A DNA stretch of 64,000 bases, taken from NCBI GenBank assembly GCA_963732005.1, contig CAVSXT010000005.1, forward strand, positions 2,057,315 to 2,121,314, written 5' to 3'. The translations under genes and the position numbers were made by a program. This document shows positions 31,234 to 50,843 of this stretch, piece after piece. This stretch comes from an uncultured Acidobacteriota bacterium (lineage in GTDB: Bacteria > Acidobacteriota > Thermoanaerobaculia > Multivoradales > UBA5704). How positions within the stretch are numbered: the stretch's first letter is position 1; each line of letters begins with the position of its first letter. The notes under the pieces were generated by a model. It did not search any database. It saw nothing but the letters and a program-made list of their open reading frames with translations, and was not told the DNA's origin.

Positions 31234-31623
31234 TCAGTCGGTCCAGATCGCTTGGCTATAGTGCCGCCGGATGGCATCGTCCTTGGTGAGGAGCGGCGCC
31301 GGGCGCACGGCCGCCTGACCGACCAAAAGGCGATCGAATGGATCGCGAGTCCACGACTGTTGTATCGCCGCTGCGATCACCTGGGGAAAGGGCAGATCGC
31401 AGATCTTCAGGCCGATCTCCCGGTTCAGGGCCGCGACCACCTCACGGCCAGGCTTGACAGTACGCTGAATCTCGAACAGGTACTCGAGCTCGAGCTCGAC
31501 TGCAGGTGAGATCATGAGCTCGCTGGTGTCGAGCAACCGGCGCACAGCGGCAGGCAAGAGCTCGAGGCGACCCGCGAACAGCCAGGCCACGACGTGCGTG
31601 TCGAGATAGATCAGGGCCGCCAT
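31234..31623 (-). CDS. vapC: PIN-domain toxin (VapC-like)
   Basis: N-terminal MAALIYLDTHVVAWL PIN motif. 129 aa. Overlaps the upstream antitoxin gene. Confidence 0.8.
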   Translation of the reverse strand: MAALIYLDTHVVAWLFAGRLELLPAAVRRLLDTSELMISPAVELELEYLFEIQRTVKPGREVVAALNREIGLKICDLPFPQVIAAAIQQSWTRDPFDRLLVGQAAVRPAPLLTKDDAIRRHYSQAIWTD

Positions 31624-31832
31624 TCGCCGGACCAGTCGAGGTGCACGAGATCCTCAGGGGCAGCACGCAGATAGTCTCGCGGTGTGAGGCGCTCGATCCT
31701 GCTCGGCGGCTCCTCGCAGACGATCTTGAGCAGCTTGCCCCGCCGCTCGATCTCGACCGGCACACCGGTTTCCAGTACCTGGTCCAGGATGCGGTAGATG
31801 TTCTCGCGCAGCTTCGAGGCCTTGAGTCGCAT
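31611..31832 (-). CDS. Phd/YefM-type antitoxin
   Basis: MRLKASKLRENIYRILDQVLETGVPVEIERRGKLLKIV is typical of Phd/YefM. ATG at the complement of 31830-31832. Confidence 0.75.
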   Translation of the reverse strand: MRLKASKLRENIYRILDQVLETGVPVEIERRGKLLKIVCEEPPSRIERLTPRDYLRAAPEDLVHLDWSGEWRP

Positions 31833-37925: not shown

Positions 37926-38186
37926 ATGGCGATTGCTCACTCGAAGCTGACGGCGCAGGGTCAGATCTCCGTGCCGGCCGAGGTCAGGCGGCGGCTCGGC
38001 ATTGGACCGGGCTCGATCCTGGAATGGGAGCAGGAGGACGGGCGAATCGTGGTCCGGCGGGCCGGCCGCTACAGCTCGGAGGAGATCCATCGAGCGCTCT
38101 TCCCCGAGGCACCTCGACCCCGGACGCTCGCAGAGCTCGAGCAGGGTGTGTCGCGGCACGTGAAGAGCCGCCATGCGCGCCGTTGA
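37926..38186 (+). CDS. vapB: AbrB/MazE/SpoVT-family antitoxin (VapB-like)
   Basis: ISVPAEVRRRLGIGPGSILEWEQEDGRIVV swapped-hairpin motif. Confidence 0.75.
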   Translation: MAIAHSKLTAQGQISVPAEVRRRLGIGPGSILEWEQEDGRIVVRRAGRYSSEEIHRALFPEAPRPRTLAELEQGVSRHVKSRHARR

Positions 38187-38559
38187 CACCAACCTGCTGG
38201 TCCGGCTGGCGACGCGGGACGACGTTCGGCAGACCGCCGCCGCCGAGGCCTTCGTGGCCGGCGGCGCCTGGGTCCCTCATCTCGCCCTGATCGAGGCCAT
38301 GTGGGTGCTGGCATCGCTCTACGAGCTTGGTCCCGAGAAGATCGCGACGGCCGTCGCGATGTTCCTGCATCACCGAGATCTCACCATTCAAGACGCCGAG
38401 GTGGTGGCGGCTGCGCTCGAGCAGTTTCGGCAGCGCCCGGGGCTGGGCTTCTCCGATTGCCTGATCCTGGAGACGGCGCGGAAGGCCGGCCATCTGCCGC
38501 TCGGGACGTTCGACCGCGAGCTCGGCAAGCTGGCAGGGGCGCAGCGCCTGGAATCCTGA
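38173..38559 (+). CDS. vapC: PIN-domain toxin (VapC-like)
   Basis: MRAVDTNLLVRL...GFSDCLILETARKAG. Overlaps the vapB stop. Confidence 0.8.
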   Translation: MRAVDTNLLVRLATRDDVRQTAAAEAFVAGGAWVPHLALIEAMWVLASLYELGPEKIATAVAMFLHHRDLTIQDAEVVAAALEQFRQRPGLGFSDCLILETARKAGHLPLGTFDRELGKLAGAQRLES

Positions 38560-40962: not shown

Positions 40963-41215
40963 AGGTCCGGCGGGAGAGCAGTCTGGATCATACAGGAGGG
41001 GGGTGGGCTGGGAGGGGTGGCGGGGCGGCGGCGGCCCGGGTGCGGGGCCTCGGGATCTCCGGATGCAGCGCCTCGAGGCAGCGGGTTGAGGCAGCGGGTT
41101 GGTTGTGCGTATACTCGGCTCCGCTCCCGGGGAGGGCAGGAGGAGCGGGGATCGGCCCTTTTCCGGCCGTCGCACCCGCAAAGCCCCCGGCGAGTTCTCT
41201 TTGCAAGCCCCAATT

Positions 41216-41302
41216 GGAGGTGTGGCCGAGTGGACAATGGCAGCAGACTGTAAATCTGCCGGGCTAAGCCCTACCTAGGTTCGAATCCTAGCGCCTCCAC
41301 CA
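41216..41302 (+). tRNA. tRNA-Tyr (anticodon GTA), with encoded CCA
   Basis: GGAGGTG acceptor arm paired with CGCCTCC; anticodon loop CTGTAAA; long variable arm CGGGCTAAGCCCTACC; T-arm CTAGG-TTCGAAT-CCTAG; 3' ACCA. Confidence 0.9.
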
Positions 41303-41630
41303 ATGGAATCAATGAATTAGAGCGAGAAGCTGCCGGCTCCATACGCTGCAGTTGGACCAAATCTGGCCACTTAGGAAATTTTGCCGATGGTCTCGAGCGG
41401 TGCATCGGCCGCGGTGGCAAGGTCACCTGGTGGGGGGCCGCATTCCCTTGATGGATCGGGAAGAGTAAGTCGGCGACCATCGCCGGCAGCACCGATAGCC
41501 GACCTCATCGACCGCCGGGACGCGGTGTGCGCAGTGGCGATGCAGCCGGCACTGGAGGGCGGAGGTACCTTCCTGCACGACAAGGTCGCTTGGCGCGCGC
41601 CGCGGGCAAGCGCCGCGGCGCGCGTGGTGG

Positions 41631-42515
41631 TCAGAAGCGAGCAGGGGGACAATGAGGGATCAGCGTGGTAGCGAGCGGCCCGCAATCAGTGACATCGGGC
41701 CACGGGAGCAACGTGCCAGGCGTCGTGCAGAGCCGGTGGAAGTGAAGGAAGTGCATCTCAGCCTGCGCGGGCCCCCCGGTTGAAGCACCGAGCGTCGAGA
41801 GCGGGATGTTGACGAGCCAGGCCTCGACATCGTTGCCTCCTGTCGTCAAGGTGATGTTGCCTTTGTTGCTCTGGAAGACCACCTGCTGGCCAGCCGAGAT
41901 CGTTATGGTCACCTTGACGACGTCGGCAATAGCCCTCCTGGTAACGACGCTGATGTTCTTGTTCATCATGTCGGCATAGTACCAACGGACGATCAAACCG
42001 CTGCCCGAAGCGAGCTGATCCGTCGACCAGGTGCCGTTCATGACCCACAATCGAGCCGAAGCGAGGCCGGCGGGGAAGGCGTTAGCCGTGACCTCCGGCA
42101 GCAGCGGCTGTCCAGGATTCGCGTCGGCCATGTTGCAGGTCCAGCCGAAATGGGTTTTGGGTTCGGCGGGAGACAGGCACGGTCCTACCACGGGAGCAGG
42201 CAAGGGAGTCGCTGCTGCACTTACCGGCGACACTCCGATGTCCTCCTCATCGAGAGGGAAGGCGATGAGAGCATCCTTGGCGAGATTCTGCGCCGGTGGA
42301 ATGTAGAGCCAGTTCTGGCGTGCAGTGGCAATCTGCCCCGGCGGCAGGGCTGGCAGGCACAGCATGGGGGTGTGGCGGTCCGGCGAGCCGATCGGAAGGG
42401 GTTGGCCGGAGGTGTCGTAATCGTAGGCATTGGGCAAGACGATGACGACGCTCTGGCCGGCGGCTGGCACGCACGCGCAGAGTCCGGTCACGTAGAGGTT
42501 CAGATTAAAGGTCAT
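41631..42515 (-). CDS. Hypothetical protein translationally coupled to the CHAT-domain protein (ATGA overlap)
   Basis: ATG (complement of 42513-42515) preceded by AAGGAGG at 7-nt spacing. The CHAT ORF stop overlaps this start. No family recognised (MTFNLNLYVTGLCACVPAAGQSVVIVLPNAY...). Confidence 0.6.
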   Translation of the reverse strand: MTFNLNLYVTGLCACVPAAGQSVVIVLPNAYDYDTSGQPLPIGSPDRHTPMLCLPALPPGQIATARQNWLYIPPAQNLAKDALIAFPLDEEDIGVSPVSAAATPLPAPVVGPCLSPAEPKTHFGWTCNMADANPGQPLLPEVTANAFPAGLASARLWVMNGTWSTDQLASGSGLIVRWYYADMMNKNISVVTRRAIADVVKVTITISAGQQVVFQSNKGNITLTTGGNDVEAWLVNIPLSTLGASTGGPAQAEMHFLHFHRLCTTPGTLLPWPDVTDCGPLATTLIPHCPPARF

Positions 42516-45500
42516 CGCGAGATCCTCCTTTCGGTGGTGGCCACCTGGAACAATTGAAATCCGCCCCACGCTGCGACCTCGTGCAATACGGGGTCGCGTC
42601 CGTGCAGCAGCTCAAGTTGGGTGTTGCGAAGAGCCGCGGCCGGGCCTTCGGCGGAGCGGAGGCGGCGATAGAAGCGTGCGAAAAACTGCTCGGCGGAGGC
42701 GTCGTCGACGCTTCCCAGCGCCGCCACTACGGCAGGTACGCCGGTGGCTAGAAAGGCCTCGACCAGGCCGCGCGAGCCTTCGGTATCTTGGCTGCCGGCG
42801 GCCCGGCAGGAGGAAAGCACCACGAGTCGCGTGCGGCCGGCCGCAAGGCGTCGAATGTCGCCGGCGCTCAAGGCCACCTTGTCCTCAGTGCTGGCCCGCG
42901 CGAGGGGCAGGAGAGAGAGGTCCGGCTGCTGGTCATCGGCGAGCACATGCGCGGCCAAGTGCACGATTGCAAATCGACCGAAACCGCGGGAGAACGCGGC
43001 GGCGGTTGCGTCCTGGCCGAGGCTGAGAACTGAGTTGGGGCGGTAGAGATCGGCGATCGCAGTGGCCTCTCGCCGGGCGCTGGGGAGCGGTTCCAGAAAG
43101 GAGAAGATCGCTGCGTCCAGACGAGGGTCTCCCAGCACGAAGGCGCTTGCGAGCGCCTGCCCCGAAGTTGCACCCCTCGGATCGGCCAATGCCGCGCTGG
43201 GTACGATCACCACTTCATGGTCGGCGACGAGCGGTTGTCCTGCCGGGCCGGCCAGTGCCGCGAAGGGGACGCGGCGCAGGCTCTTGTCAGGGGAGACGAG
43301 CAATGTGGTGACACCGAAAATGTCAGGAGCGATGGGATCGATCAAGACCGAAGAGAGCTTGCGCAGTGCCTCACGCGCGTCCTGCGGGCCAGAGTCCAGG
43401 AATTGCACCCAGGTTTCTAGGTCCGCGGCCGCGATGGACTCGATGTGGAAGCGAATGCGACCCTTGGTCATCACCCAGATTAGCAGCTGGTGAGGGAGCA
43501 CGGCGAACTCGACGAGAGCCCGTGCGCGATCCAGGCGATGCGTCAGGCCAGCGTCGGCCGCGGGGAGGTGGAGGGTGTCGCGCAGGGCGCGGGCGCGCGC
43601 TTCGTCGGCAATCGCAAAGAGGGCCGCCGGGGTCGCATGGGCCTCGATCGAGGTGGACATCCACTGGTCATAGACGGTGCGCGACTGAGAGAGGAAGGCA
43701 GTGCGAGACTCTCCAGCGTCGAGATGGACGCGTTGCGCCTCGACCTCCAGTAGAGCCTTGTGCAGCGACGCGGCTGCCGCAGCGCTATCGTGATTCGCGG
43801 TTTGGGCGAAGGCGAGCTCGGTCAGAAAATGGATCAGGCGCACCGCATCGTGCAAGGCTTGTGCGACGGCGGTTGCGCGCGCCAGCTCGGTAGCGGCTTT
43901 CACAGGAGCGGTTTTGAGGAGCAGATGCCCGCGCTCGGTCCAGATGTCCGCCAGCCATTGTCGGCGAGAGTCCGGATCGGCAAGCGCCGCGGCGGCGCCT
44001 TCAGCGGCCTTGAGATCCTGTAGAGCGCTCGCCTTACGACCGAGCGCCGCCCGTGCCCGTGCGCGGGTCAAGAGAGCGTACGCAGCTCCCGCCTGCCCGA
44101 GCGAGGGGCCCGATCGCTCAACGAGGCGGTCGGCGAACGCCAGCGCAGCGTGGGGAAGATTTGAGTCCTGCGCTGCCTGGCAAAGAGTCGCATAGGCGAC
44201 GATGAGGCGCCGCGGGTCGCCCGCCTGTACCGCAAGGCGACTACCCTGGTATAGCCAGGGCCATGCTGCAGGCCGTTGACCCAGGAGCCACAGGCTCTCG
44301 TAAAGGTTGAGAGCCACGCCCGCGCGCTCGGCCAGCGCACCCGAGTGCTGCGCAAGCACTTGGGCGTCATGGTAGTCGCGCAAGCAGTCGCCATTGCGTC
44401 CGGAATGGCTGAGGCTGGCACCTCGCAGCCAGAGCAGGCGCAGGCGGAGCGACGGGTATCGCCCGTGTAGGTCGCGATCGAGGGCCGTCAGGATGGTTAT
44501 GGCGCTGCCGAAATGGCCGCTCTGATAGGCGCAGAGGCCGCGGCCATACTCTGCCCACCAGGCGAGTGCCGGGACCGTGCGAGCCAGCTGCCGTGCAGCA
44601 GGCACAAGCAGCGCCTCCCCTCGTTTGCCCTCGTTGACCTGACAGGTTGTCAAGCCTGCCGCCACCTGGCTTACGCTGCGGGCAAGCGAAGGCAGGCGGC
44701 GAGGCTCTGCCTGGCGCAGGAGCGCCGTCGCCTCGACAAGCATGGAATCCGAGCAGCAGGCGGCTACACTCTGGCCGATACGCGTCATGAGGTCGAGGAG
44801 CCTGGCGGCAGCAGCGTCTTGGCCGCGCTGCACGGCTTCGGCCCAGCGGGGCAGCAGCCGCTCCTCGGCGAGCTTGCGCATCTCGCGCGGGAAGCTGGAG
44901 ATGAGGACGTTCGCTTCGGCGCAGGGCAATGGACAGGCCTCGAATCGCGCGAGTGCTGAGGGCCAGGCCGCCGTTGGATCCCCGGCGAGGCCTCGTGCGC
45001 CGACAGCGCCGTCGGTGAGCGAGGGTGACACCGCTTCCGGAGCAGCGAGGAAAGCGGCGTGCAGTGCGAGAGTCCAGTTGACTCTTGCCTCGGGCAGGAG
45101 AGGCGAGAGTTCGAGCGCTGTCTCGATTGCATCGAGCGCTGCAAGGCGCCCGGGGCCGTCCAACGCCGTGAGGTGAGTGAGATAAAACGCTCCGAGGTCA
45201 TTCAGGATGCACGCGTTGCGCGGACTCATGGCTGCGGCGTGTCTGAGAGCTGCCTCGGCCAGACGGTGATGTCCAAGTACCGCGCGCGCGACGCCAAGGT
45301 CGGCTAGCGCGTCCGCGCTTGGCGCTTGTGTCGCCCGCCGCTCGATGGCGTGTAGGGCGGCGATCTCGGAGCCGGTGGCAGGTGCCACGAGCGCGCCGGC
45401 GGCGAGCGGTTCAGCGAGCACCCCGCCAGCGAACCAAGGCCCTGAAGCCAGCGGACGAGCAAGGGCATCTCGGAGTCGTGCCCGCTCGGTGGAGCAGCTC

Positions 45501-45544
45501 GACCAGGGGGCGACAGTGACCTGCCTGCAGGCAGTGCCGGGCAC
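42512..45544 (-). CDS. CHAT-domain (caspase-like peptidase) protein with a long helical/TPR-like N-terminal region
   Basis: C-terminal CHAT domain IVHLAAHVL...LVVLSSCRAAGS...GLVEAFLATGVPAVVAALGSVDD with a His/Cys dyad. GTG start at the ORF track position; the true start is uncertain. Confidence 0.75.
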   Translation of the reverse strand: MPGTACRQVTVAPWSSCSTERARLRDALARPLASGPWFAGGVLAEPLAAGALVAPATGSEIAALHAIERRATQAPSADALADLGVARAVLGHHRLAEAALRHAAAMSPRNACILNDLGAFYLTHLTALDGPGRLAALDAIETALELSPLLPEARVNWTLALHAAFLAAPEAVSPSLTDGAVGARGLAGDPTAAWPSALARFEACPLPCAEANVLISSFPREMRKLAEERLLPRWAEAVQRGQDAAAARLLDLMTRIGQSVAACCSDSMLVEATALLRQAEPRRLPSLARSVSQVAAGLTTCQVNEGKRGEALLVPAARQLARTVPALAWWAEYGRGLCAYQSGHFGSAITILTALDRDLHGRYPSLRLRLLWLRGASLSHSGRNGDCLRDYHDAQVLAQHSGALAERAGVALNLYESLWLLGQRPAAWPWLYQGSRLAVQAGDPRRLIVAYATLCQAAQDSNLPHAALAFADRLVERSGPSLGQAGAAYALLTRARARAALGRKASALQDLKAAEGAAAALADPDSRRQWLADIWTERGHLLLKTAPVKAATELARATAVAQALHDAVRLIHFLTELAFAQTANHDSAAAAASLHKALLEVEAQRVHLDAGESRTAFLSQSRTVYDQWMSTSIEAHATPAALFAIADEARARALRDTLHLPAADAGLTHRLDRARALVEFAVLPHQLLIWVMTKGRIRFHIESIAAADLETWVQFLDSGPQDAREALRKLSSVLIDPIAPDIFGVTTLLVSPDKSLRRVPFAALAGPAGQPLVADHEVVIVPSAALADPRGATSGQALASAFVLGDPRLDAAIFSFLEPLPSARREATAIADLYRPNSVLSLGQDATAAAFSRGFGRFAIVHLAAHVLADDQQPDLSLLPLARASTEDKVALSAGDIRRLAAGRTRLVVLSSCRAAGSQDTEGSRGLVEAFLATGVPAVVAALGSVDDASAEQFFARFYRRLRSAEGPAAALRNTQLELLHGRDPVLHEVAAWGGFQLFQVATTERRISR

Positions 45545-45732
45545 CGCAAATGCCGCAAGCAGACAGACCCAGCGAATGAGACTGGTCAGATCAGCCTCCT
45601 GTAAAACGACAGCCCGAGTCGCTGCGCGGAGCGGAAGGGGCGGAGATGTTTGGCGTCCACCGTTCTTCTCCTCTGACGTGCTTAGACGGCCGTGCCGGCG
45701 TTTTTTCGCGGGTGCGGCGCGCAGACCTCTGA

Positions 45733-47199
45733 CTACGGCTCCCTGACAACGAAAAAGAACGGGTCAATGGATGGCTGCACGGGGTAACCTGCGAGGTCCG
45801 TCAGGACATGCCGTTTCCAGTCGACGTTACGTAAATACCTGACCTTGACGTGCTTGGGGATCTTGGTGGGGTCAGGGTTGTTATAGGCGGAGAAGATGCC
45901 GTAGAAATCCTTCCCGACTGCGATCAGGTGGTCGTAATCGCCGAGCGTGTTGTTGCCTTGGCAGGAGCCTGGAACATCCTGCGTGTTCGCCAGCATTTCG
46001 TGGACGGCTGGCGCGGTAGCGAAGCGGTTGTCCGAGATCTCGATGTGGGTTTCCCAGTAGTGGCTACCAGGAGTGCCGGTAAGCTTCTGGTAGAGGAAGC
46101 CGACCTGCCCCAGGTTGTTGACCGCAAGCGCCGGATTGGTAGCAGCGACGACCTGCCGTAGATCATGACTCCATCGGGCACCGCCGTCATACGAGGAGCG
46201 GAGATGCAGAGTGAAGGTGTCAGCGGTGGTGCCGTCAGCCCAGGCGATGTATAAAATCTTGCTCTTGCCTCGCCGCGGATCGACGGCGAGCGCGAGGTTG
46301 CCGCGGACCCTCTGAGTGCCGAGATACAGGTTGGGGAGCGAGATAGCGACAGCGCAAGCCGCGCAGACGCCGGGGACACCTCCCGCGCTAATTGCCTGAT
46401 AGGGATTCGATGCAGCCCCCCAGGCGTCGTCTCTGACGACGATCACATCGGCGATCGCGGGAGGTATGCACGACCTCGGATGCAAGAAGGCCAGGTACAC
46501 AGTGCCGTTAGGATGAATCGCCGGACGAATGGAAGTGCCGTCCATGCACCCGAGGGTCCGGGCATCGAGAGATAGGGGGCCGACAAAGTTGTCCAGCGGC
46601 GGGGCTTTCGCCGCGTCGAGTGATTGCTCGACGGCCGCTGACCGGTAGTAAGGTGCATCGAGGTTGTTGTAACCTACGTAAACGCGGTCGACGCCAGGGT
46701 TCAGGGCGGTCGCCTCCTCGACGTCGGGCTGGTCGCCGTCTTGGATCTGGATGAGATCGGTCATCGCGCCAGGCGCCAGTAAGTTGACCTGGCGTAGCAG
46801 GTCGACCTTCTTGTTGTCGTTACGCAGGATGCCCGCGTAAAGAACGCCAGAGGTTTGGGAAAATCGCAAGGTGATGTCGCACATGGCGGACCCGCCCGGC
46901 AAGACGCCCGGCAAGACAACGTTGAGAAGCCAGGTCATGCCGCCGTCGGTCGAGACGAAGATCGGCGCCTCGCTCGATTCGAGAGGGTCGGGTGTTAGGG
47001 CAGATGCTGCCATCTGAAGAGGGTTTGCCGGGTTGACCGCGATGCTCGGCTCGGCGTCGCAGTTGGATTCTCCACTTAGAGACCGCGGGATGACGTCGAC
47101 CACCTGGATCGTCGGAAGATGAGCACAGTGCAGCCCGAGCAGACTCAGAAGGAGGAGCAACCAGTTCTGCGGTGCCGCGAGAGGCGAGGGCCTCGTCAT
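45733..47199 (-). CDS. Secreted BNR/Asp-box repeat protein (sialidase-fold-like)
   Basis: Signal peptide MTRPSPLAAPQNWLLLLLSLLGLHCAH and Asp-box motifs STDGGMTW and SYDGGARW. Confidence 0.65.
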   Translation of the reverse strand: MTRPSPLAAPQNWLLLLLSLLGLHCAHLPTIQVVDVIPRSLSGESNCDAEPSIAVNPANPLQMAASALTPDPLESSEAPIFVSTDGGMTWLLNVVLPGVLPGGSAMCDITLRFSQTSGVLYAGILRNDNKKVDLLRQVNLLAPGAMTDLIQIQDGDQPDVEEATALNPGVDRVYVGYNNLDAPYYRSAAVEQSLDAAKAPPLDNFVGPLSLDARTLGCMDGTSIRPAIHPNGTVYLAFLHPRSCIPPAIADVIVVRDDAWGAASNPYQAISAGGVPGVCAACAVAISLPNLYLGTQRVRGNLALAVDPRRGKSKILYIAWADGTTADTFTLHLRSSYDGGARWSHDLRQVVAATNPALAVNNLGQVGFLYQKLTGTPGSHYWETHIEISDNRFATAPAVHEMLANTQDVPGSCQGNNTLGDYDHLIAVGKDFYGIFSAYNNPDPTKIPKHVKVRYLRNVDWKRHVLTDLAGYPVQPSIDPFFFVVREP

Positions 47200-47250
47200 G
47201 ATGATCTCTCGTGTCACGAAAGTGCGTCGGGCAGAAGGCCGGCGTGTCGA

Positions 47251-48078
47251 TCAGTTGGTCTGAACCGCGATGATCGAGCGGATCTGCTCGAGCCGGTCCA
47301 GCGACAGGACATCGAGTTCGTCAAGGGCCGTCAGTCCGAGTAGGTGCAGCACCGGCATCCCTCTCTCCTTTTGGTCGCGCTGCAAGATCAGGATCTGCAC
47401 GGTTCCTGTGCGCAACTTGGGTGAGGCCCGCCACAGCAAGTCCGTGCTGTTGGGAAAGAGGACGTGCAAGGCGGACGGCGGCTCGCCCATAAGGACGGAG
47501 TGGACTTCGATCGTAGCCACCCACCAATCGGGGTCGTGCTCAGCGATGAGGGGCGGGGCGCCGTATGACGACGCGGGGCAGGTCGCCTTGACGGTACCTA
47601 CGACGATAAGCTGGGCGCGGGCGACGCGATCGCGGAGCTGGGCGGCGAACGCCCTGTTCTCGGCATCGCGGATCCGCGCTGGAAGGCTCGCGCCCTCCGT
47701 GGGGTTCATGTGGTATATCTCAACTACGGCCAAGGTGTCGCCGAAGAGCCAGCTGCGAGTCAAGAAGATCGCGGCATCTCCGATTTTGAGGAGCGAGTCG
47801 CCCTTGAGCCTCACGGTGACGCGTTTTCCTTTCAGGGAATAGTATGGCCCCGCCACTGGCCGATAAACTTGGTCTACTTGGATCACCGCTGTACGAGAGT
47901 CGACGGGGAAGGCCGGTTCGGTCGCAGTTCCAATTGCCTTCACGGTGCCTTGGAATATGAACTGCGACCGGCTCAGCAGCGCATCAAGACCTTGGGCGCC
48001 CGCGAGCGCGGAAAGAGAAAGAGCCAAGGTGCCGAGGAGCGAGAGCTGGCGTGCTGTTGAGCAGCGTGACACCGCCAT
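47251..48078 (-). CDS. Secreted hypothetical protein
   Basis: Internal ATG followed by the signal peptide MAVSRCSTARQLSLLGTLALSLSALAGAQG. No family recognised. Confidence 0.5.
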   Translation of the reverse strand: MAVSRCSTARQLSLLGTLALSLSALAGAQGLDALLSRSQFIFQGTVKAIGTATEPAFPVDSRTAVIQVDQVYRPVAGPYYSLKGKRVTVRLKGDSLLKIGDAAIFLTRSWLFGDTLAVVEIYHMNPTEGASLPARIRDAENRAFAAQLRDRVARAQLIVVGTVKATCPASSYGAPPLIAEHDPDWWVATIEVHSVLMGEPPSALHVLFPNSTDLLWRASPKLRTGTVQILILQRDQKERGMPVLHLLGLTALDELDVLSLDRLEQIRSIIAVQTN

Positions 48079-48398
48079 CGTTCGCCCCCGCGCTCGACTC
48101 CTGGATTGTGGGGCACCCATGCGAGTCTCCGATGGCGACGGCCGTGAGTGTCGCGGGGCCGGAGAGGGGCGGATGCTCAGTCTGCCCCGATGGTGGAAGA
48201 GTCTACGAGGCAGTCCGACTGAGGGCAAGCATTTTGATGCATTGCGATATCGACAAATGAGGTGGTTCTTACAGTCCGGATCGGCGGTGGAGCAGGAAGG
48301 CGAGGCTGCCATAGGCGCTCACTTCGATCGCTCAAGGAGGCGATCGATGAAGAAATGCGGCAGCGTGCACGGCGACGCCATTTGCGAGGAAAATAACC

Positions 48399-48782
48399 AT
48401 GCCCGACAGAACCAAGAAGACCCCAAGAGCGAACACCACTGTGAAGAGCGAAGAGCGGAACCTGTTTCGCGAATTGATGTCTGGCGTGAAGGCGATGCAG
48501 CAACACCGCGAAGGGCGACTCACCTTGCGGAGCCACCACGTCCTGCCGATCACGCTTCCTCCCTTGAATCCGCAGCTCGTGCGCGACACGCGTGAAGCGT
48601 TGCACATGTCACGACAGGTGTTTGCGTTGAAGCTGGGCGTGAAGCCCCGCACGCTCGAACGCTGGGAGCAAGGACGTAGCAAACCAAACGAGCAGGCGGC
48701 AGCACTGATCTGGTTGGTGCGGAAATATCCGGACACTCTCGAGCGTATCGAGTCCCTGAGTGTTGGTGAGAGCAAGGCCTGA
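48399..48782 (+). CDS. XRE-family HTH protein, COG2944/HigA-MqsA-like antitoxin-type regulator (no cognate toxin identified)
   Basis: TREALHMSRQVFALKLGVKPRTLERWEQGRSKPNEQAAALIWLVRKYPDTLERI is characteristic of this antitoxin family. The start is uncertain (no Shine-Dalgarno sequence at 48399). Confidence 0.6.
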   Translation: MPDRTKKTPRANTTVKSEERNLFRELMSGVKAMQQHREGRLTLRSHHVLPITLPPLNPQLVRDTREALHMSRQVFALKLGVKPRTLERWEQGRSKPNEQAAALIWLVRKYPDTLERIESLSVGESKA

Positions 48783-48820
48783 ATGAGTGAGGGTTGCGGG
48801 CATGAGCGCGGCCGTGGCCT

Positions 48821-49879
48821 CTACGCCAGGATCTGCTCGATGCAGGCTGCCGCGCCGGGCAGCTGCCGGTACTCGAGGCAGCGTGACCGCTGGCGCTCGC
48901 GCAGCTCTTCCAGGTCTTGACGCAACGCACCGAACGCTGCGGCGGCCGCCTCCGGGTTGGCGCACCGCAGGTGGCGAAACTCGAGGGGCACGGGGTCGGG
49001 CGGCAGGACCGCGCCAGCGGCGACACGCAGCAGATTTCCGGGGACCGGGCCGGGCCTGCCCGGGCGCGGCAGGGCGGCCGGATCCACCAGAGCGAGCGGG
49101 ACGCCCATGGCCGCCGCGCGAGCGGCCAGGACGGAGCGGCAGTTGGCGGTGATCAGGAGGTCGTGGCGCGCGACCTCGGCCTCGAGCTCGCCGTAGGGGA
49201 GGTCCTCTCGGATGACCCGCGCCTGGCGAAGAAACGGCAGGGAGGGGTCGAGCGGGCTCAGCACACTGAGCTCGACGTCGAGCTGGGAAAGACCTTGGAA
49301 GGCCAGGCGCTCGGCGGCCGGAAATTCCGGAAAGGCATGCATCCAGGGCGCGGCCGCCCACAGCCAGCGGTGGTGGCGCCGCGGGCGGCCCGCCCTCGCG
49401 CCGGCCGAGAACACGAGCTGTTCCGCACGGGGCGCCTCGCCGTAGGTGAAGGGCCGCGGCAGGATGACCGCGACGCCGGGCGGGAGCGGGCAGACGAAGG
49501 AATCGCCGCAAGGATCCAGCGCCGCGATGCGGACGCCGGCCGCCTGCCAGAGCGCCAGCAGCGCCTGGGTCAGCTGGGGGAAGATCGGCACCTGGAAGAA
49601 GGCGCGAAAGCTCGCCAGCACGATGAGGTCGGGAGCACGATCCATCGGGCGCACCTCGACGTCGAGGCCGCTCTGCCCGCGCTGCTTTTCGAGCAGGGCA
49701 AACCCGCGCAGGCGGCGCAGCAGACCGTCGACCCGGGGATGCGGGTCCCAGGCGCGGAGCAGCTCCGCATAACGGATCCGAAAACGTTCCCTGGACAAGC
49801 CCCGCGCCAGCCGGATGAGCGCCGTCAGCTCGCCGATGCTCCCCGCCATGAGGTGAGTGCTGGTCGAGGGGAAGACCAT
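48821..49879 (-). CDS. Putative GT-B fold glycosyltransferase (MurG/GT28/MGT-like)
   Basis: Two-lobe pattern: an N-terminal domain (MVFPSTSTHLMAGSIGELTALIRLARGL) and a C-terminal nucleotide-sugar lobe (DLLITANCRSVLAARAAAMGVPLALV). Weak assignment. Confidence 0.45.
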   Translation of the reverse strand: MVFPSTSTHLMAGSIGELTALIRLARGLSRERFRIRYAELLRAWDPHPRVDGLLRRLRGFALLEKQRGQSGLDVEVRPMDRAPDLIVLASFRAFFQVPIFPQLTQALLALWQAAGVRIAALDPCGDSFVCPLPPGVAVILPRPFTYGEAPRAEQLVFSAGARAGRPRRHHRWLWAAAPWMHAFPEFPAAERLAFQGLSQLDVELSVLSPLDPSLPFLRQARVIREDLPYGELEAEVARHDLLITANCRSVLAARAAAMGVPLALVDPAALPRPGRPGPVPGNLLRVAAGAVLPPDPVPLEFRHLRCANPEAAAAAFGALRQDLEELRERQRSRCLEYRQLPGAAACIEQILA

Positions 49880-49907
49880 GAGCACCCACGGACGGCGTCG
49901 CCGGCCC

Positions 49908-50729
49908 TCAGGAGATCGTCGTGACATGCGGTTGGAGCAGACCTGCGATCGTCCCCTCGAGCGCCAGCAGCGGCGGCCGGCCCGCCTCGCGATGCCGCCG
50001 CCGCGCCTCGACCAGCGAGGCCAGCAGCGCATCCTCGGCGGTGTTGAGATTGAGATGGATCTCGCGAAACTCGAGGGCCTCGGCCCGCGCCCCGCGAGCG
50101 AGCAGCCACGACAGCAGATCGCCGAGATGCGGGTGGCGCCGCACCAGGTCGGGCGGCACGCCGTCGAGCAGCCCGGCGCCGAATCCCACGCAACCGCACC
50201 AGCGGGTGCTGCCGGCCAGCTGGCCGGCGGCCGGCTTCTCGCGCACGCTCAGCACGCGGCCGGCAGCGTCGGTCACCACGTTGCACAGGATCCTGTGCGA
50301 CTCCGAGTCGCGCACGACGCCCACCAGCAGATCGGGCGCCGCCGCCCGCCCGGCCAGCGCGCGGAACGGCGACGAGTCTTCGTAGTACTCGTCGCCGAGG
50401 AGCACGAGCGCCGCATCTCCTGCCAGCCACGGCGCCAGCGACAGCAGGCCCAGGATCGGACCGAGGGGCTCGGCTTCGGCCACGCAGGAGATGGTCACTC
50501 CCGTCGGCGGCGTGTAGAGGGCGAGCGCCGAGCGCACGCTGCCGGCGAAGGTCGCCGAGGTCGCAACCAGGATCTCGGCGACGCCCGCCTCGGCACACTG
50601 CTCGATCTGGCGCATCAGGAGCGGCTGGTCGAAGACCGGCAGCAGGCACTTGGGCAGCACCTGGCCCAGGGTGCCGAGGCGGGAGCCCCTGCCCCCGGCC
50701 AGGATGACCGCCCGCGGATACGGGACCAT
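49908..50729 (-). CDS. Sugar-1-phosphate nucleotidylyltransferase (NTP_transferase, RmlA/GlmU-like)
   Basis: RAVILAGGRGSRLGTLGQVLPKCLLPV signature. ATG at the complement of 50727-50729 (the TTG called in the track lies 9 nt upstream). Confidence 0.8.
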   Translation of the reverse strand: MVPYPRAVILAGGRGSRLGTLGQVLPKCLLPVFDQPLLMRQIEQCAEAGVAEILVATSATFAGSVRSALALYTPPTGVTISCVAEAEPLGPILGLLSLAPWLAGDAALVLLGDEYYEDSSPFRALAGRAAAPDLLVGVVRDSESHRILCNVVTDAAGRVLSVREKPAAGQLAGSTRWCGCVGFGAGLLDGVPPDLVRRHPHLGDLLSWLLARGARAEALEFREIHLNLNTAEDALLASLVEARRRHREAGRPPLLALEGTIAGLLQPHVTTIS

Positions 50730-50843
50730 GGGCGCCAACGGTAGCCGCTGCTCGCTCCCGCCGCAAGTCCGGGGAAATGCTAAGGTGCCGGCGTACGCGG
50801 CGATTTCGCGGCGATCCTGCCGCTACCCGCGACGCAATGTTCC

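What the first reader, a model, noticed from the sequence alone, without database searches (positions are those of the whole stretch)
41631..45544. CHAT-domain protease-like protein translationally coupled (ATGA) to a 294-aa partner of unknown function, next to tRNA-Tyr
The 1010-aa protein ends in a complete CHAT (caspase-like) domain with an intact His/Cys dyad (HLAAH ... LSSCRAAG). It follows a long helical repeat region.
- Its stop codon overlaps the ATG of a downstream 294-aa ORF with a strong AAGGAGG ribosome-binding site. I cannot place this partner in any family.
- CHAT proteases are recurrently found in conflict and programmed-cell-death systems, usually with a partner that is an effector or substrate.
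- This two-gene cassette lies in a lower-GC block immediately downstream of a tRNA gene.
Basis: partly seen in the sequence, partly recalled or inferred. Interest (0 to 1): 0.65.

Follow-up and report, generated by a model that had tools for sequence, protein, structure and literature searches.

The report
CHAT protease with novel-fold partner
A caspase-like (CHAT) protease gene is coupled to a gene for a roughly 300-residue protein from an unannotated family with no recognisable fold; the pair recurs in soil Acidobacteriota, usually with a second protease, and looks like an undescribed multi-protease module of untested function.

Summary
A 1010-aa ORF (42512-45544, minus strand) has a complete CHAT domain with an intact His/Cys dyad. 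Its TGA overlaps the ATG of a 294-aa ORF (41631-42515) that follows an AAGGAGG site. The pair lies in a low-GC block next to tRNA-Tyr.

In 33 of 35 informative loci a partner homologue sits directly downstream of a TPR-CHAT gene. It is usually followed by, or fused to, a second peptidase: S8 subtilase, papain-like, DUF6345 or trypsin. The partner tree follows the peptidase class. The window and its closest relative lack the second peptidase. Instead they carry an unrelated, widespread pair of secreted-protein genes upstream.

I read this as the minimal form of a CHAT-gated proteolytic module in which the partner is the protease-coupled substrate or adaptor. A defence or cell-death role is plausible but untested, and no known defence genes or mobile-element hallmarks are present. 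It is unexplained that the CHAT proteins carry signal-peptide or lipobox-like N-termini while the partner does not.

The parts
41631..42515 (-). Partner gene, 294 aa. It belongs to an unannotated family of about 300-aa, mostly beta proteins. Conserved residues include C13, H48, C113, W125, H255, C278, C289 and the C-terminal motif IPHCPPARF.
   Evidence: Translation. No Pfam, NCBIfam or PADLOC hit. 147 representative clusters at E<=1e-3. Motifs. AF2 pLDDT 94.6. No PDB or viral fold match.
42512..42530 (-). Coupling junction: AAGGAGG (42530-42524), an 8-nt spacer, then ATGA (42515-42512), where the CHAT stop TGA overlaps the partner ATG.
   Evidence: Sequence read. The same -4 overlap occurs in L001, L003, L005 and L044.
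42512..45589 (-). TPR-CHAT protease gene. It is 1010 aa from GTG 45544, and probably 1025 aa from CTG 45589. The CTG start adds a signal-peptide or lipobox-like N-terminus (LIRWVCLLAAFAVPGTAC).
   Evidence: ORF and translation. N-terminal conservation with L001 begins at G(T/A)AC. Hydrophobic, Cys-ending N-termini occur in most family members. CTG coordinates.
42551..43372 (-). CHAT (caspase-fold) domain, aa 725-998. Catalytic His866 is encoded at 42949-42947 and Cys913 at 42808-42806.
   Evidence: Pfam PF12770 E=5.8e-54. His and Cys are invariant in 16 homologues. Coordinates.
45595..45600 (-). AGGAGG Shine-Dalgarno-like site, 5 nt upstream of the in-frame CTG at 45589-45587.
   Evidence: Sequence.
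45733..47199 (-). Secreted BNR/sialidase-like beta-propeller, 488 aa with a signal peptide. It is part of an independent, widespread two-gene module. It is linked to CHAT-partner only here and in L001.
   Evidence: Weak BNR hit. More than 752 homologues, some named sialidase family. 58% identity to the L001 gene. It occurs without CHAT in L004 and in the P0009 contig.
47251..48078 (-). 275-aa secreted protein of unknown family, the constant upstream companion of the propeller gene.
   Evidence: 56% identity to L001 and 51% to L004. Signal-peptide-like N-terminus. No family hit.
48399..48782 (+). XRE-family HTH gene, 127 aa, with a weak MqsA-antitoxin-like hit. It is divergently transcribed from the cassette and lies inside the low-GC block. 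It is not conserved in L001.
   Evidence: Pfam HTH_3 E=2.5e-7 and MqsA_antitoxin E=9.5e-5. L001 context.
41216..41302 (+). tRNA-Tyr (GTA), forming one edge of the low-GC block.
   Evidence: ARAGORN. No tRNA-derived repeat at the far edge.
41303..48800 (.). Low-GC block of about 7.5 kb that holds the HTH gene and the four-gene cassette.
   Evidence: Composition profile. Codon-position GC.

Best explanation
The locus encodes the minimal form of a conserved proteolytic module found so far mainly in Acidobacteriota (Thermoanaerobaculia).

**Shown**
- A large TPR-CHAT cysteine protease with an intact His/Cys dyad is always followed, often with overlapping stop and start, by a protein of about 300 aa. 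This protein belongs to an unannotated family whose confident predicted fold has no solved relative.
- In most loci this pair is followed by a second peptidase of variable class: S8 subtilase, C39- or C70-like papain fold, caspase-like DUF6345, or a trypsin or S8 domain fused to the partner's C-terminus.
- The partner's phylogeny tracks the class of that peptidase.

**Inferred**
- The partner is the protease-coupled component. It interacts with both CHAT and the second peptidase.
- It most likely acts as the CHAT substrate or latch (a pro-domain or adaptor). CHAT cleavage of it would license the downstream peptidase, or the partner itself. This would be an initiator, adaptor and executioner cascade.
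- In the window and its closest relative the second peptidase has been lost. The output must then be the partner itself or CHAT.
- The conserved Cys and His residues suggest a metal site, or disulfides if the protein is exported.
- A role in conflict or programmed cell death is the most plausible biological setting, but it is not demonstrated.
For: - **Linkage.** CHAT lies directly upstream of the partner in 33 of 35 informative loci. This includes a member at the limit of detection (P0250, E=1.7e-4).
- **Co-divergence.** The closest partners go with the closest CHATs.
- **Fusions.** Partner::trypsin occurs in P0158, P0200, P0225 and L009. Partner::S8 occurs in P0218 (locus L056).
- **Third-gene classes.** S8, papain-like, DUF6345 and trypsin.
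- **Partner tree.** It splits into S8, C39, DUF6345, trypsin-fused and C70-like clades. The window and L001 nest inside the C39 clade.
- **Active enzymes.** The CHAT dyad is invariant. The fused trypsin domains keep the H/D/S triad, and in two of the three fusions an (I/L)(V/L)GG-like segment follows the linker, as in cleavage-activated zymogens.
- **Core without a peptidase.** Peptidase-less variants also exist elsewhere (L057: CHAT, partner, partner2), so CHAT plus partner can stand as a core.
- **Precedent.** CHAT and other proteases that license adjacent effectors are known (bGSDM, 10.1101/2021.06.07.447441; ten protease-linked modules in PMC12642450).
- **Real gene.** W and L001 partners are 62% identical and full length. 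The family-wide motifs are retained.
Against: - No cleavage, interaction or toxicity has been tested, and no conserved cleavage motif was identified. A candidate Arg before the D-x-H-F helix is absent from the window protein.
- Most family CHAT proteins have a signal-peptide or lipobox-like N-terminus. The partner and the third peptidases have none. If CHAT is exported, a direct cytoplasmic cascade is topologically awkward.
- No PADLOC match, and neighbourhoods are mostly housekeeping.
- The window lacks the second peptidase, so the cascade cannot operate here as drawn.
- The conserved Cys/His set could equally mean that the partner is an enzyme and not a substrate.
Confidence: 0.45

Rival explanations
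1. The partner is a sensor or specificity subunit that binds a trigger, or the TPR array, and switches CHAT on. It is not cleaved. The variable peptidases are the interchangeable effectors.
For: - CHAT plus partner is constant while the third gene varies, which is the usual pattern for a sensor core with swappable effectors.
- The partner has a strongly conserved extreme C-terminal motif (NPxCPPAxF, with or without a short tail). From general knowledge, TPR domains often bind C-terminal peptides.
- N-terminal partner with C-terminal protease fusions resemble sensor-effector fusions.
Against: - The partner tree follows the peptidase class. That argues for a specific partner-peptidase interaction and against free effector swapping.
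- The TPR array on CHAT is already a candidate sensor.
- No ligand-binding fold was recognised.
Confidence: 0.2
2. The partner is itself a new metal- or thiol-dependent enzyme or toxin (an effector with catalytic Cys/His). CHAT and the other peptidases process or regulate it. This would parallel protease-activated MBL nucleases or alpha/beta-hydrolase zymogens.
For: - H48, C113, H255, C278 and C289 are invariant or nearly so, with C13 as well. A D-x-H-F-x-[H/E] helix motif is present.
- H255 is replaced by Asp in the trypsin-fused clade, as a metal ligand could be.
- Peptidase-less variants remain under selection.
- Precedent for protease-licensed zymogens (PMC12642450).
Against: - No similarity to any known enzyme fold or family.
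- If the protein is exported, the four conserved Cys could simply be two disulfides.
Confidence: 0.15
3. This is an envelope protein-processing system and not a conflict system. An exported or lipoprotein TPR-CHAT matures or turns over extracytoplasmic proteins, here perhaps the co-transferred 275-aa and BNR-propeller proteins. The partner is an accessory factor.
For: - Signal-peptide or lipobox-like N-termini ending in Cys occur in most family CHAT proteins, including the window protein if it starts at the CTG.
- Three of the four cassette proteins in the window would then be exported.
- The four-gene synteny is conserved between the window and L001 although the flanks differ.
- Even-numbered conserved Cys in the partner are compatible with disulfides.
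- No defence context.
Against: - The partner and all third peptidases lack signal peptides.
- The propeller pair is linked to CHAT only in two closely related loci out of about 35.
- The region after the hydrophobic segment is strongly basic in W, L001 and L014. That disfavours Sec export and would fit an N-terminal membrane anchor with a cytoplasmic protease.
Confidence: 0.15
4. The adjacency is operonic but functionally trivial. The partner is a passenger hypothetical gene, and the window cassette is a decaying remnant of the three-gene system.
For: The window lacks the third peptidase present in the clade it derives from. The CHAT gene has no canonical start codon that includes the conserved N-terminal segment.
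Against: - Both ORFs are intact, and 62-68% identical to L001 over their full length, with all family motifs and the catalytic dyad retained.
- Linkage is near universal across a family that has diverged to about 22% identity.
- The strong RBS and ATGA coupling are conserved.
Confidence: 0.05

Closest known systems
Bacterial gasdermin (bGSDM) with CHAT or caspase-like protease operons
   Same: A TPR/repeat-bearing CHAT protease is encoded next to a beta-rich protein of about 250-300 aa with no enzymatic signature. The family is associated with several protease classes. There is a near-invariant N-terminal Cys and a conserved C-terminal segment ending in an aromatic residue (bGSDM features from 10.1101/2021.06.07.447441).
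   Different: - No Pfam or PADLOC gasdermin hit.
- The gene lies downstream of the protease.
- The Cys is at position 13, inside a predicted beta-hairpin turn, not at position 3-4.
- A second peptidase is commonly present or fused.
Craspase (type III-E CRISPR): TPR-CHAT Csx29 cleaving Csx30
   Same: A TPR-CHAT protease is paired with a dedicated, otherwise unannotated protein that is its specific substrate.
   Different: No cas or gRAMP genes or CRISPR context in any locus. The partner matches no solved chain by sequence or fold; I take it from memory that Csx30 structures are in the PDB. There is no sigma or anti-sigma companion.
SAVED-CHAT to PCaspase cascade (type III-B CRISPR) and other protease-effector modules (MBL, alpha/beta-hydrolase, Pepco, EACC1, CATASP, MPE, CalpT; PMC12642450)
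   Same: The logic is an upstream protease licensing a latent downstream protein, including a second protease. The module family associates with trypsin-like, caspase-like and S8 proteases. Module and protease phylogenies are congruent.
   Different: - The partner is none of the ten catalogued modules by size, family or fold.
- No STAND, SAVED or other known sensor is fused.
- The distribution seen so far is mainly Acidobacteriota.
- An intermediate non-protease component sits between two proteases.
Stand-alone TPR-CHAT proteins (HetF/orthocaspase-like) of cyanobacteria and other bacteria
   Same: The domain architecture is helical repeats plus a C-terminal CHAT domain with a His/Cys dyad.
   Different: This subfamily has an obligate downstream partner gene and commonly a signal-peptide or lipobox-like N-terminus.

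Membership tests
CHAT peptidase (Pfam PF12770, clan CD caspase fold) | Profile match above the curated threshold | tested here: met
   183.9 bits against a cutoff of 24, E=5.8e-54, covering profile positions 2-286 of 289.
CHAT peptidase (Pfam PF12770, clan CD caspase fold) | Catalytic His and Cys dyad present | tested here: met
   His866 and Cys913 occupy the only invariant His and Cys columns in 16 family members.
CHAT peptidase (Pfam PF12770, clan CD caspase fold) | N-terminal TPR array | tested here: inconclusive
   No TPR Pfam hit in the window protein at E<=0.01. Only weak or faint TPR hits in homologues. No structure was predicted for this protein.
Bacterial gasdermin | Gasdermin N-terminal-domain fold or sequence profile | tested here: not met
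   [not shown]
Bacterial gasdermin | Encoded next to a caspase-like or CHAT protease | tested here: met
Bacterial gasdermin | Palmitoylated Cys3/4 and a cleavable C-terminal inhibitory peptide of about 20 aa | not testable with these tools
   The conserved Cys is at position 13. The C-terminus is modelled as part of the fold with high confidence. Lipidation and cleavage need experiments.
Craspase Csx29/Csx30 | Type III-E CRISPR (gRAMP/Cas7-11) context | tested here: not met
   Neighbours are a ROK kinase, an MFS transporter, an NTP-transferase, PIN genes and similar. No cas genes appear among the Pfam-annotated genes of the flanks of any long locus.
Craspase Csx29/Csx30 | Partner homologous to Csx30 | tested here: not met
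   The profile of 43 partners finds no PDB chain (best E=0.28, an unrelated dioxygenase). No fold match.
Catalogued protease-associated effector modules (Pepco, EACC1, MBL, alpha/beta-hydrolase, MPE, CATASP, CalpT; PMC12642450) | Sequence or fold membership in one of these families | tested here: not met
   No Pfam, NCBIfam or PADLOC hit in 43 members. No MBL, hydrolase or MPE fold match. The size (about 300 aa, mostly beta) is unlike Pepco (117 aa) or the small CATASP.
Catalogued protease-associated effector modules (Pepco, EACC1, MBL, alpha/beta-hydrolase, MPE, CATASP, CalpT; PMC12642450) | Association with several protease classes, with congruent phylogeny | tested here: met
   CHAT, trypsin, S8, papain-like and DUF6345. 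The partner tree follows the peptidase class.
Known anti-phage defence system (PADLOC-DB 2.0) | Any component matches a defence-system model; defence-island context | tested here: not met
   No specific hits for 5 window proteins and 10 proteins from relatives. Only generic trypsin and subtilase similarity. Flanks are mostly housekeeping, with occasional TA genes.
tRNA-integrated genomic island | Compositional deviation next to a tRNA gene | tested here: met
   GC 62-69% against 70-79%. GC3 0.73-0.76 against 0.86-0.94.
tRNA-integrated genomic island | Integrase gene and a direct repeat of the tRNA 3' end at the distal border | tested here: not met
   No integrase among the ORFs. No tRNA-derived repeat within 41100-49300.

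The most novel reading that the evidence does not exclude
The roughly 300-aa partner defines a new protein fold. It is the licensing component of a previously unrecognised bacterial protease cascade. In this cascade a membrane-associated TPR-CHAT 'initiator' acts through the partner on interchangeable 'executioner' peptidases (S8, papain-like, caspase-like, trypsin). Where the executioner is missing, as in this window, the cleaved partner is itself a new kind of death or immune effector.
Probability: 0.22. Interest if true: 0.85.

Novelty: new variant of a known kind. Interest (0 to 1): 0.62.

Why it matters
Protease-gated effectors such as gasdermins, Csx30, PCaspase and Pepco are emerging as a general logic of prokaryotic immunity and cell death.

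This finding would add a module built around a protein family with no annotation and no solved structural relative. That family is tightly wired to a CHAT protease and to four further peptidase classes. It therefore offers a compact, testable example of a multi-protease cascade with an intermediate non-protease component. It also offers a probable new fold for structural biology.

The family is confined so far mainly to uncultured soil Acidobacteriota. That may explain why it has escaped defence-system catalogues.

If the system proves instead to be an envelope protein-processing system, it would still assign a context to a large set of 'hypothetical' TPR-CHAT lipoproteins.

Tried and rejected
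1. **Gasdermin hypothesis.** Rejected: no fold or profile match.
2. **Csx30-like or other solved relative.** Rejected.
3. **Partner as lipoprotein or secreted protein.** The N-terminus has no h-region or lipobox, and AF2 models it as strands beta1-beta2 at pLDDT about 95. Rejected as a classical signal peptide.
4. **First AF2 run with a 3-sequence alignment.** It was uninformative (pLDDT 45). It was superseded by the 148-sequence run.
5. **Word-indexed homology search with the 43-sequence profile.** It returned only 3 proteins. The exhaustive HMMER scan was what revealed the family.
6. **The search for related loci with alignments A2 and A3.** I replaced it with a degenerate DNA pattern for FTGLC[AG]FVP. 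About 4 of 13 genome hits and 8 of 32 metagenome hits were chance matches, and hmmsearch filtered these out.
7. **afdb50 fold library.** Unavailable.
8. **Remnant of a lost C39-like gene in the window or L001.** None found.
9. **att-type repeats or terminators at the island borders.** Nothing convincing.
10. **The 275-aa and BNR-propeller pair as part of the CHAT system.** Rejected as a general feature. It is an independent, widespread module, linked to CHAT only in the window and L001.
11. **Literature.** No paper held in the library mentions this family or places DUF6345 in this context. PMC7685563 is not held.

Full report
**1. The observation**

Both ORFs lie on the minus strand.

The junction reads AAGGAGG, then 8 nt, then ATGA. 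The CHAT stop codon therefore overlaps the partner start.

Pfam places a complete CHAT domain at residues 725-998 (E=5.8e-54). His866 (HLAAH) and Cys913 (LSSC) sit in the only invariant His and Cys columns of an alignment of 16 family members.

tRNA-Tyr lies at 41216-41302 on the plus strand.

The stretch from about 41300 to 48800 is compositionally distinct. It has 62-69% GC against 70-79% around it. GC3 is 0.73-0.76 against 0.86-0.94 in the neighbouring genes.

The partner has no hit in Pfam, NCBIfam or PADLOC.

**2. The local unit is four genes**

The only close homologue of the partner is P0002, at 62% identity, from a Thermoanaerobaculia metagenome-assembled genome. It lies in a cassette with the same four genes in the same order:
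- a secreted protein of about 275 aa;
- a secreted BNR/sialidase-like propeller of about 480 aa;
- the TPR-CHAT protease;
- the partner.

Identities between the two cassettes are 56, 58, 68 and 62% respectively. The flanks differ: MazE/PIN and UvrC/UvrB there, an XRE-type HTH gene and tRNA-Tyr here.

The two upstream genes are a separate and very widespread pair, with more than 752 homologues. The same pair occurs without CHAT in L004 and in the P0009 contig. Among all loci examined, the pair is linked to CHAT only in these two.

I treat the pair as co-travelling cargo of the island, not as part of the core system.

**3. The partner defines a real, unannotated family**

An exhaustive HMMER scan of 1.84 billion representative proteins used a three-sequence profile. 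It found 147 clusters at E<=1e-3 and 49 at E<=1e-10. Nearly all are 290-360 aa and match end to end.

The family motifs are:
- an N-terminal FTGLCAFVP;
- an invariant His (H48);
- a C-P pair (C113);
- W125, R155 and W178;
- RALAE;
- a D-x-H-F-x-[H/E]-F-Y-x-L helix (H255);
- C278;
- a C-terminal NPxCPPAxF (C289).

None of 43 members hits Pfam or NCBIfam. Sources call them 'hypothetical protein'.

With the 148-sequence alignment, AlphaFold2 gives a confident, mostly beta model (pLDDT 94.6, pTM 0.93). A first run with three sequences had given pLDDT 45.

The AFDB library was not available. Fold novelty is therefore shown against the PDB only.

**4. The genomic rule**

I scanned GTDB genomes and JGI metagenomes with a degenerate DNA pattern for the N-terminal motif. 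I filtered the hits with family HMMs and added exact-protein look-ups.

A partner homologue lies directly downstream of a CHAT gene on the same strand in 33 of 35 informative loci. The gap ranges from -11 to +104 nt.

The two exceptions are:
- L035, where a C39-like gene is upstream instead;
- L041, which has a short upstream stretch and a CHAT N-terminal region downstream.

The rule holds even for P0250, a member at the edge of detection (E=1.7e-4).

The named genomes are almost all Thermoanaerobaculia or other Acidobacteriota. One fusion locus has only 48% GC.

**5. A third component: a second peptidase**

The gene after the partner, or the domain fused to it, falls into these classes:

| Arrangement | Loci or proteins |
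|---|---|
| S8 subtilase gene | 11 loci |
| C39_2-like papain-fold peptidase gene | L005, L007 group, L029, L042 |
| Weakly C70-like papain-fold gene | L043, with homologue L013 |
| DUF6345 gene | L015, L038, L054 |
| Trypsin domain fused to the partner's C-terminus | P0158, P0200, P0225, L009 |
| S8 domain fused to the partner | P0218 / L056 |

The DUF6345 sequences show HG...C motifs like clan-CD peptidases.

Other arrangements also occur. L016 and L053 have CHAT, partner, S8, partner2. L057 has CHAT, partner, partner2.

A distance tree of partners splits by the class of the associated peptidase. The window and L001 nest within the C39-associated clade but have no third gene and no remnant of one.

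Neither the partner nor any third peptidase has a signal peptide.

The fused trypsin domains keep the His/Asp/Ser triad. In two of the three fusions an (I/L)(V/L)GG-like segment follows the linker. In chymotrypsin-fold zymogens that segment becomes the new N-terminus on activation. This last point rests on established knowledge, not on a test here.

**6. An unexpected feature of the CHAT proteins**

Conservation between the window protein and L001 starts at G(T/A)AC. In L001 this is preceded by a textbook signal sequence (RPRRFILLLLSMAALGAAC).

Most family members have a comparable hydrophobic N-terminus ending in Cys. By my reading against the PROSITE rule, five fit the lipobox pattern.

In the window the equivalent segment (LIRWVCLLAAFAVPGTAC) lies in frame upstream of the first canonical start codon. 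Only a CTG at 45589-45587 can include it. That CTG follows AGGAGG with a 5-nt spacer.

So the gene probably starts at the CTG, and the protease is membrane-associated or exported.

This conflicts with the apparently cytoplasmic partner and third peptidases. The strongly basic region just after the hydrophobic segment in W, L001 and L014 would also fit an N-terminal anchor with a cytoplasmic protease. I cannot resolve this with the tools available (note).

**7. How it most likely works**

Shown:
- the linkage is near universal and often translationally coupled;
- CHAT and partner diverge together;
- the partner is fused to, or tracks, the second peptidase;
- all the enzymes look catalytically competent.

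Inferred:
- The partner contacts both CHAT and the second peptidase.
- It is the element through which CHAT acts. It is most simply a substrate or latch whose cleavage licenses the second peptidase, or the partner itself where no peptidase is present, as in this window.

This follows the logic documented for bGSDM with CHAT (10.1101/2021.06.07.447441). The same logic applies to the protease-effector modules surveyed in PMC12642450.

The rivals are:
- a non-cleaved sensor or specificity subunit;
- a new Cys/His enzyme;
- an envelope protein-processing role;
- a decaying remnant.

They are set out with their evidence in the Rival explanations section. None is excluded.

**8. Comparison with known systems**

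The module works most like the protease-gated effector systems, but it fails the membership tests for each of them:
- It has no gasdermin fold or profile.
- It has no Csx30 homology and no CRISPR context.
- It belongs to none of the ten catalogued protease-associated modules.
- It has no PADLOC model.

Evidence for a mobile or defence island is limited to composition and tRNA adjacency. There is no integrase and no att-like repeat. Neighbourhoods are mostly housekeeping, with occasional toxin-antitoxin genes: PIN genes in the window, MazE/PIN in L001 and HicB in L014.

**9. Verdict**

Its central hunch, that the partner is functionally tied to the CHAT protease, is strongly supported by comparative genomics. 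The defence or cell-death framing remains a hypothesis.

The result goes beyond the finding in three ways:
- an unannotated protein family with a confident but unmatched fold;
- a conserved CHAT, partner, second-peptidase architecture with fusions and co-varying phylogeny;
- an unexplained signal-peptide-like N-terminus on the protease.

I rate it a new variant of a known kind (protease-coupled modules). Interest is moderately high. There is a roughly one-in-five chance that it is a new cascade or effector class.

Noticed in passing
window 45587-45600 (minus strand): The CHAT gene probably starts at a non-canonical CTG (45589-45587), 5 nt after AGGAGG. Only this start includes the signal-peptide or lipobox-like segment LIRWVCLLAAFAVPGTAC, which is conserved in relatives. 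Gene callers use GTG 45544.
   Followed up: partly
window 45733-48078 (minus strand); L004 7048-10502: The 275-aa secreted protein and the BNR/sialidase-like propeller form an independent, very widespread two-gene module of unknown function. It has more than 752 homologues, often extended by CARDB, PKD or choice-of-anchor domains.
   Followed up: partly
window 48399-48782 (+): An XRE-family HTH gene with a weak MqsA-antitoxin-like match. It is divergent from the cassette and inside the low-GC block. No cognate toxin gene was identified.
   Followed up: no
window 38164-38559 (+) and 31234-31653 (-): Two PIN-domain (VapC-like) toxin genes lie in the native-GC flank. Cognate antitoxins were not examined.
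   Followed up: no
window 48821-50032 (-): A 403-aa ORF with native codon usage (GC3 0.86) and no Pfam or NCBIfam hit, next to an NTP-transferase gene (49908-50738).
   Followed up: no
L015 7147-8000; L038 910-2418; L054 10979-12421: DUF6345 proteins encoded after the partner carry His-Gly ... Cys motifs (YYVGHGS / VFDSCS; YFAGHGG / AVFDCC) and a weak Peptidase_C25 hit. This suggests that DUF6345 is a clan-CD, caspase-fold peptidase.
   Followed up: partly
L016, L053, L057: Tandem partner paralogues occur: CHAT, partner, S8, partner2 in L016 and L053, and CHAT, partner, partner2 without any second peptidase in L057.
   Followed up: partly
alignment A2 (partner family), C-terminus: Several partners, mostly from metagenome representative clusters of unknown gene context, end in a short conserved tail after the CPPAxF motif (F-x-[DN]-x-x-[DN]-A-COOH). 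The window clade stops at the Phe. In the trypsin-fused clade H255 is replaced by Asp and the C-terminal motif becomes Cys-rich (CACPPC / CSCCPPC).
   Followed up: no
L009 5685-7451; P0158; P0200: Trypsin domains fused to the partner keep the H/D/S triad. In L009 and P0158 an LLGG-x-...-YPECV segment resembles the mature N-terminus of cleavage-activated chymotrypsin-fold proteases; P0200 has a divergent segment. This hints at zymogen activation by the upstream CHAT.
   Followed up: no
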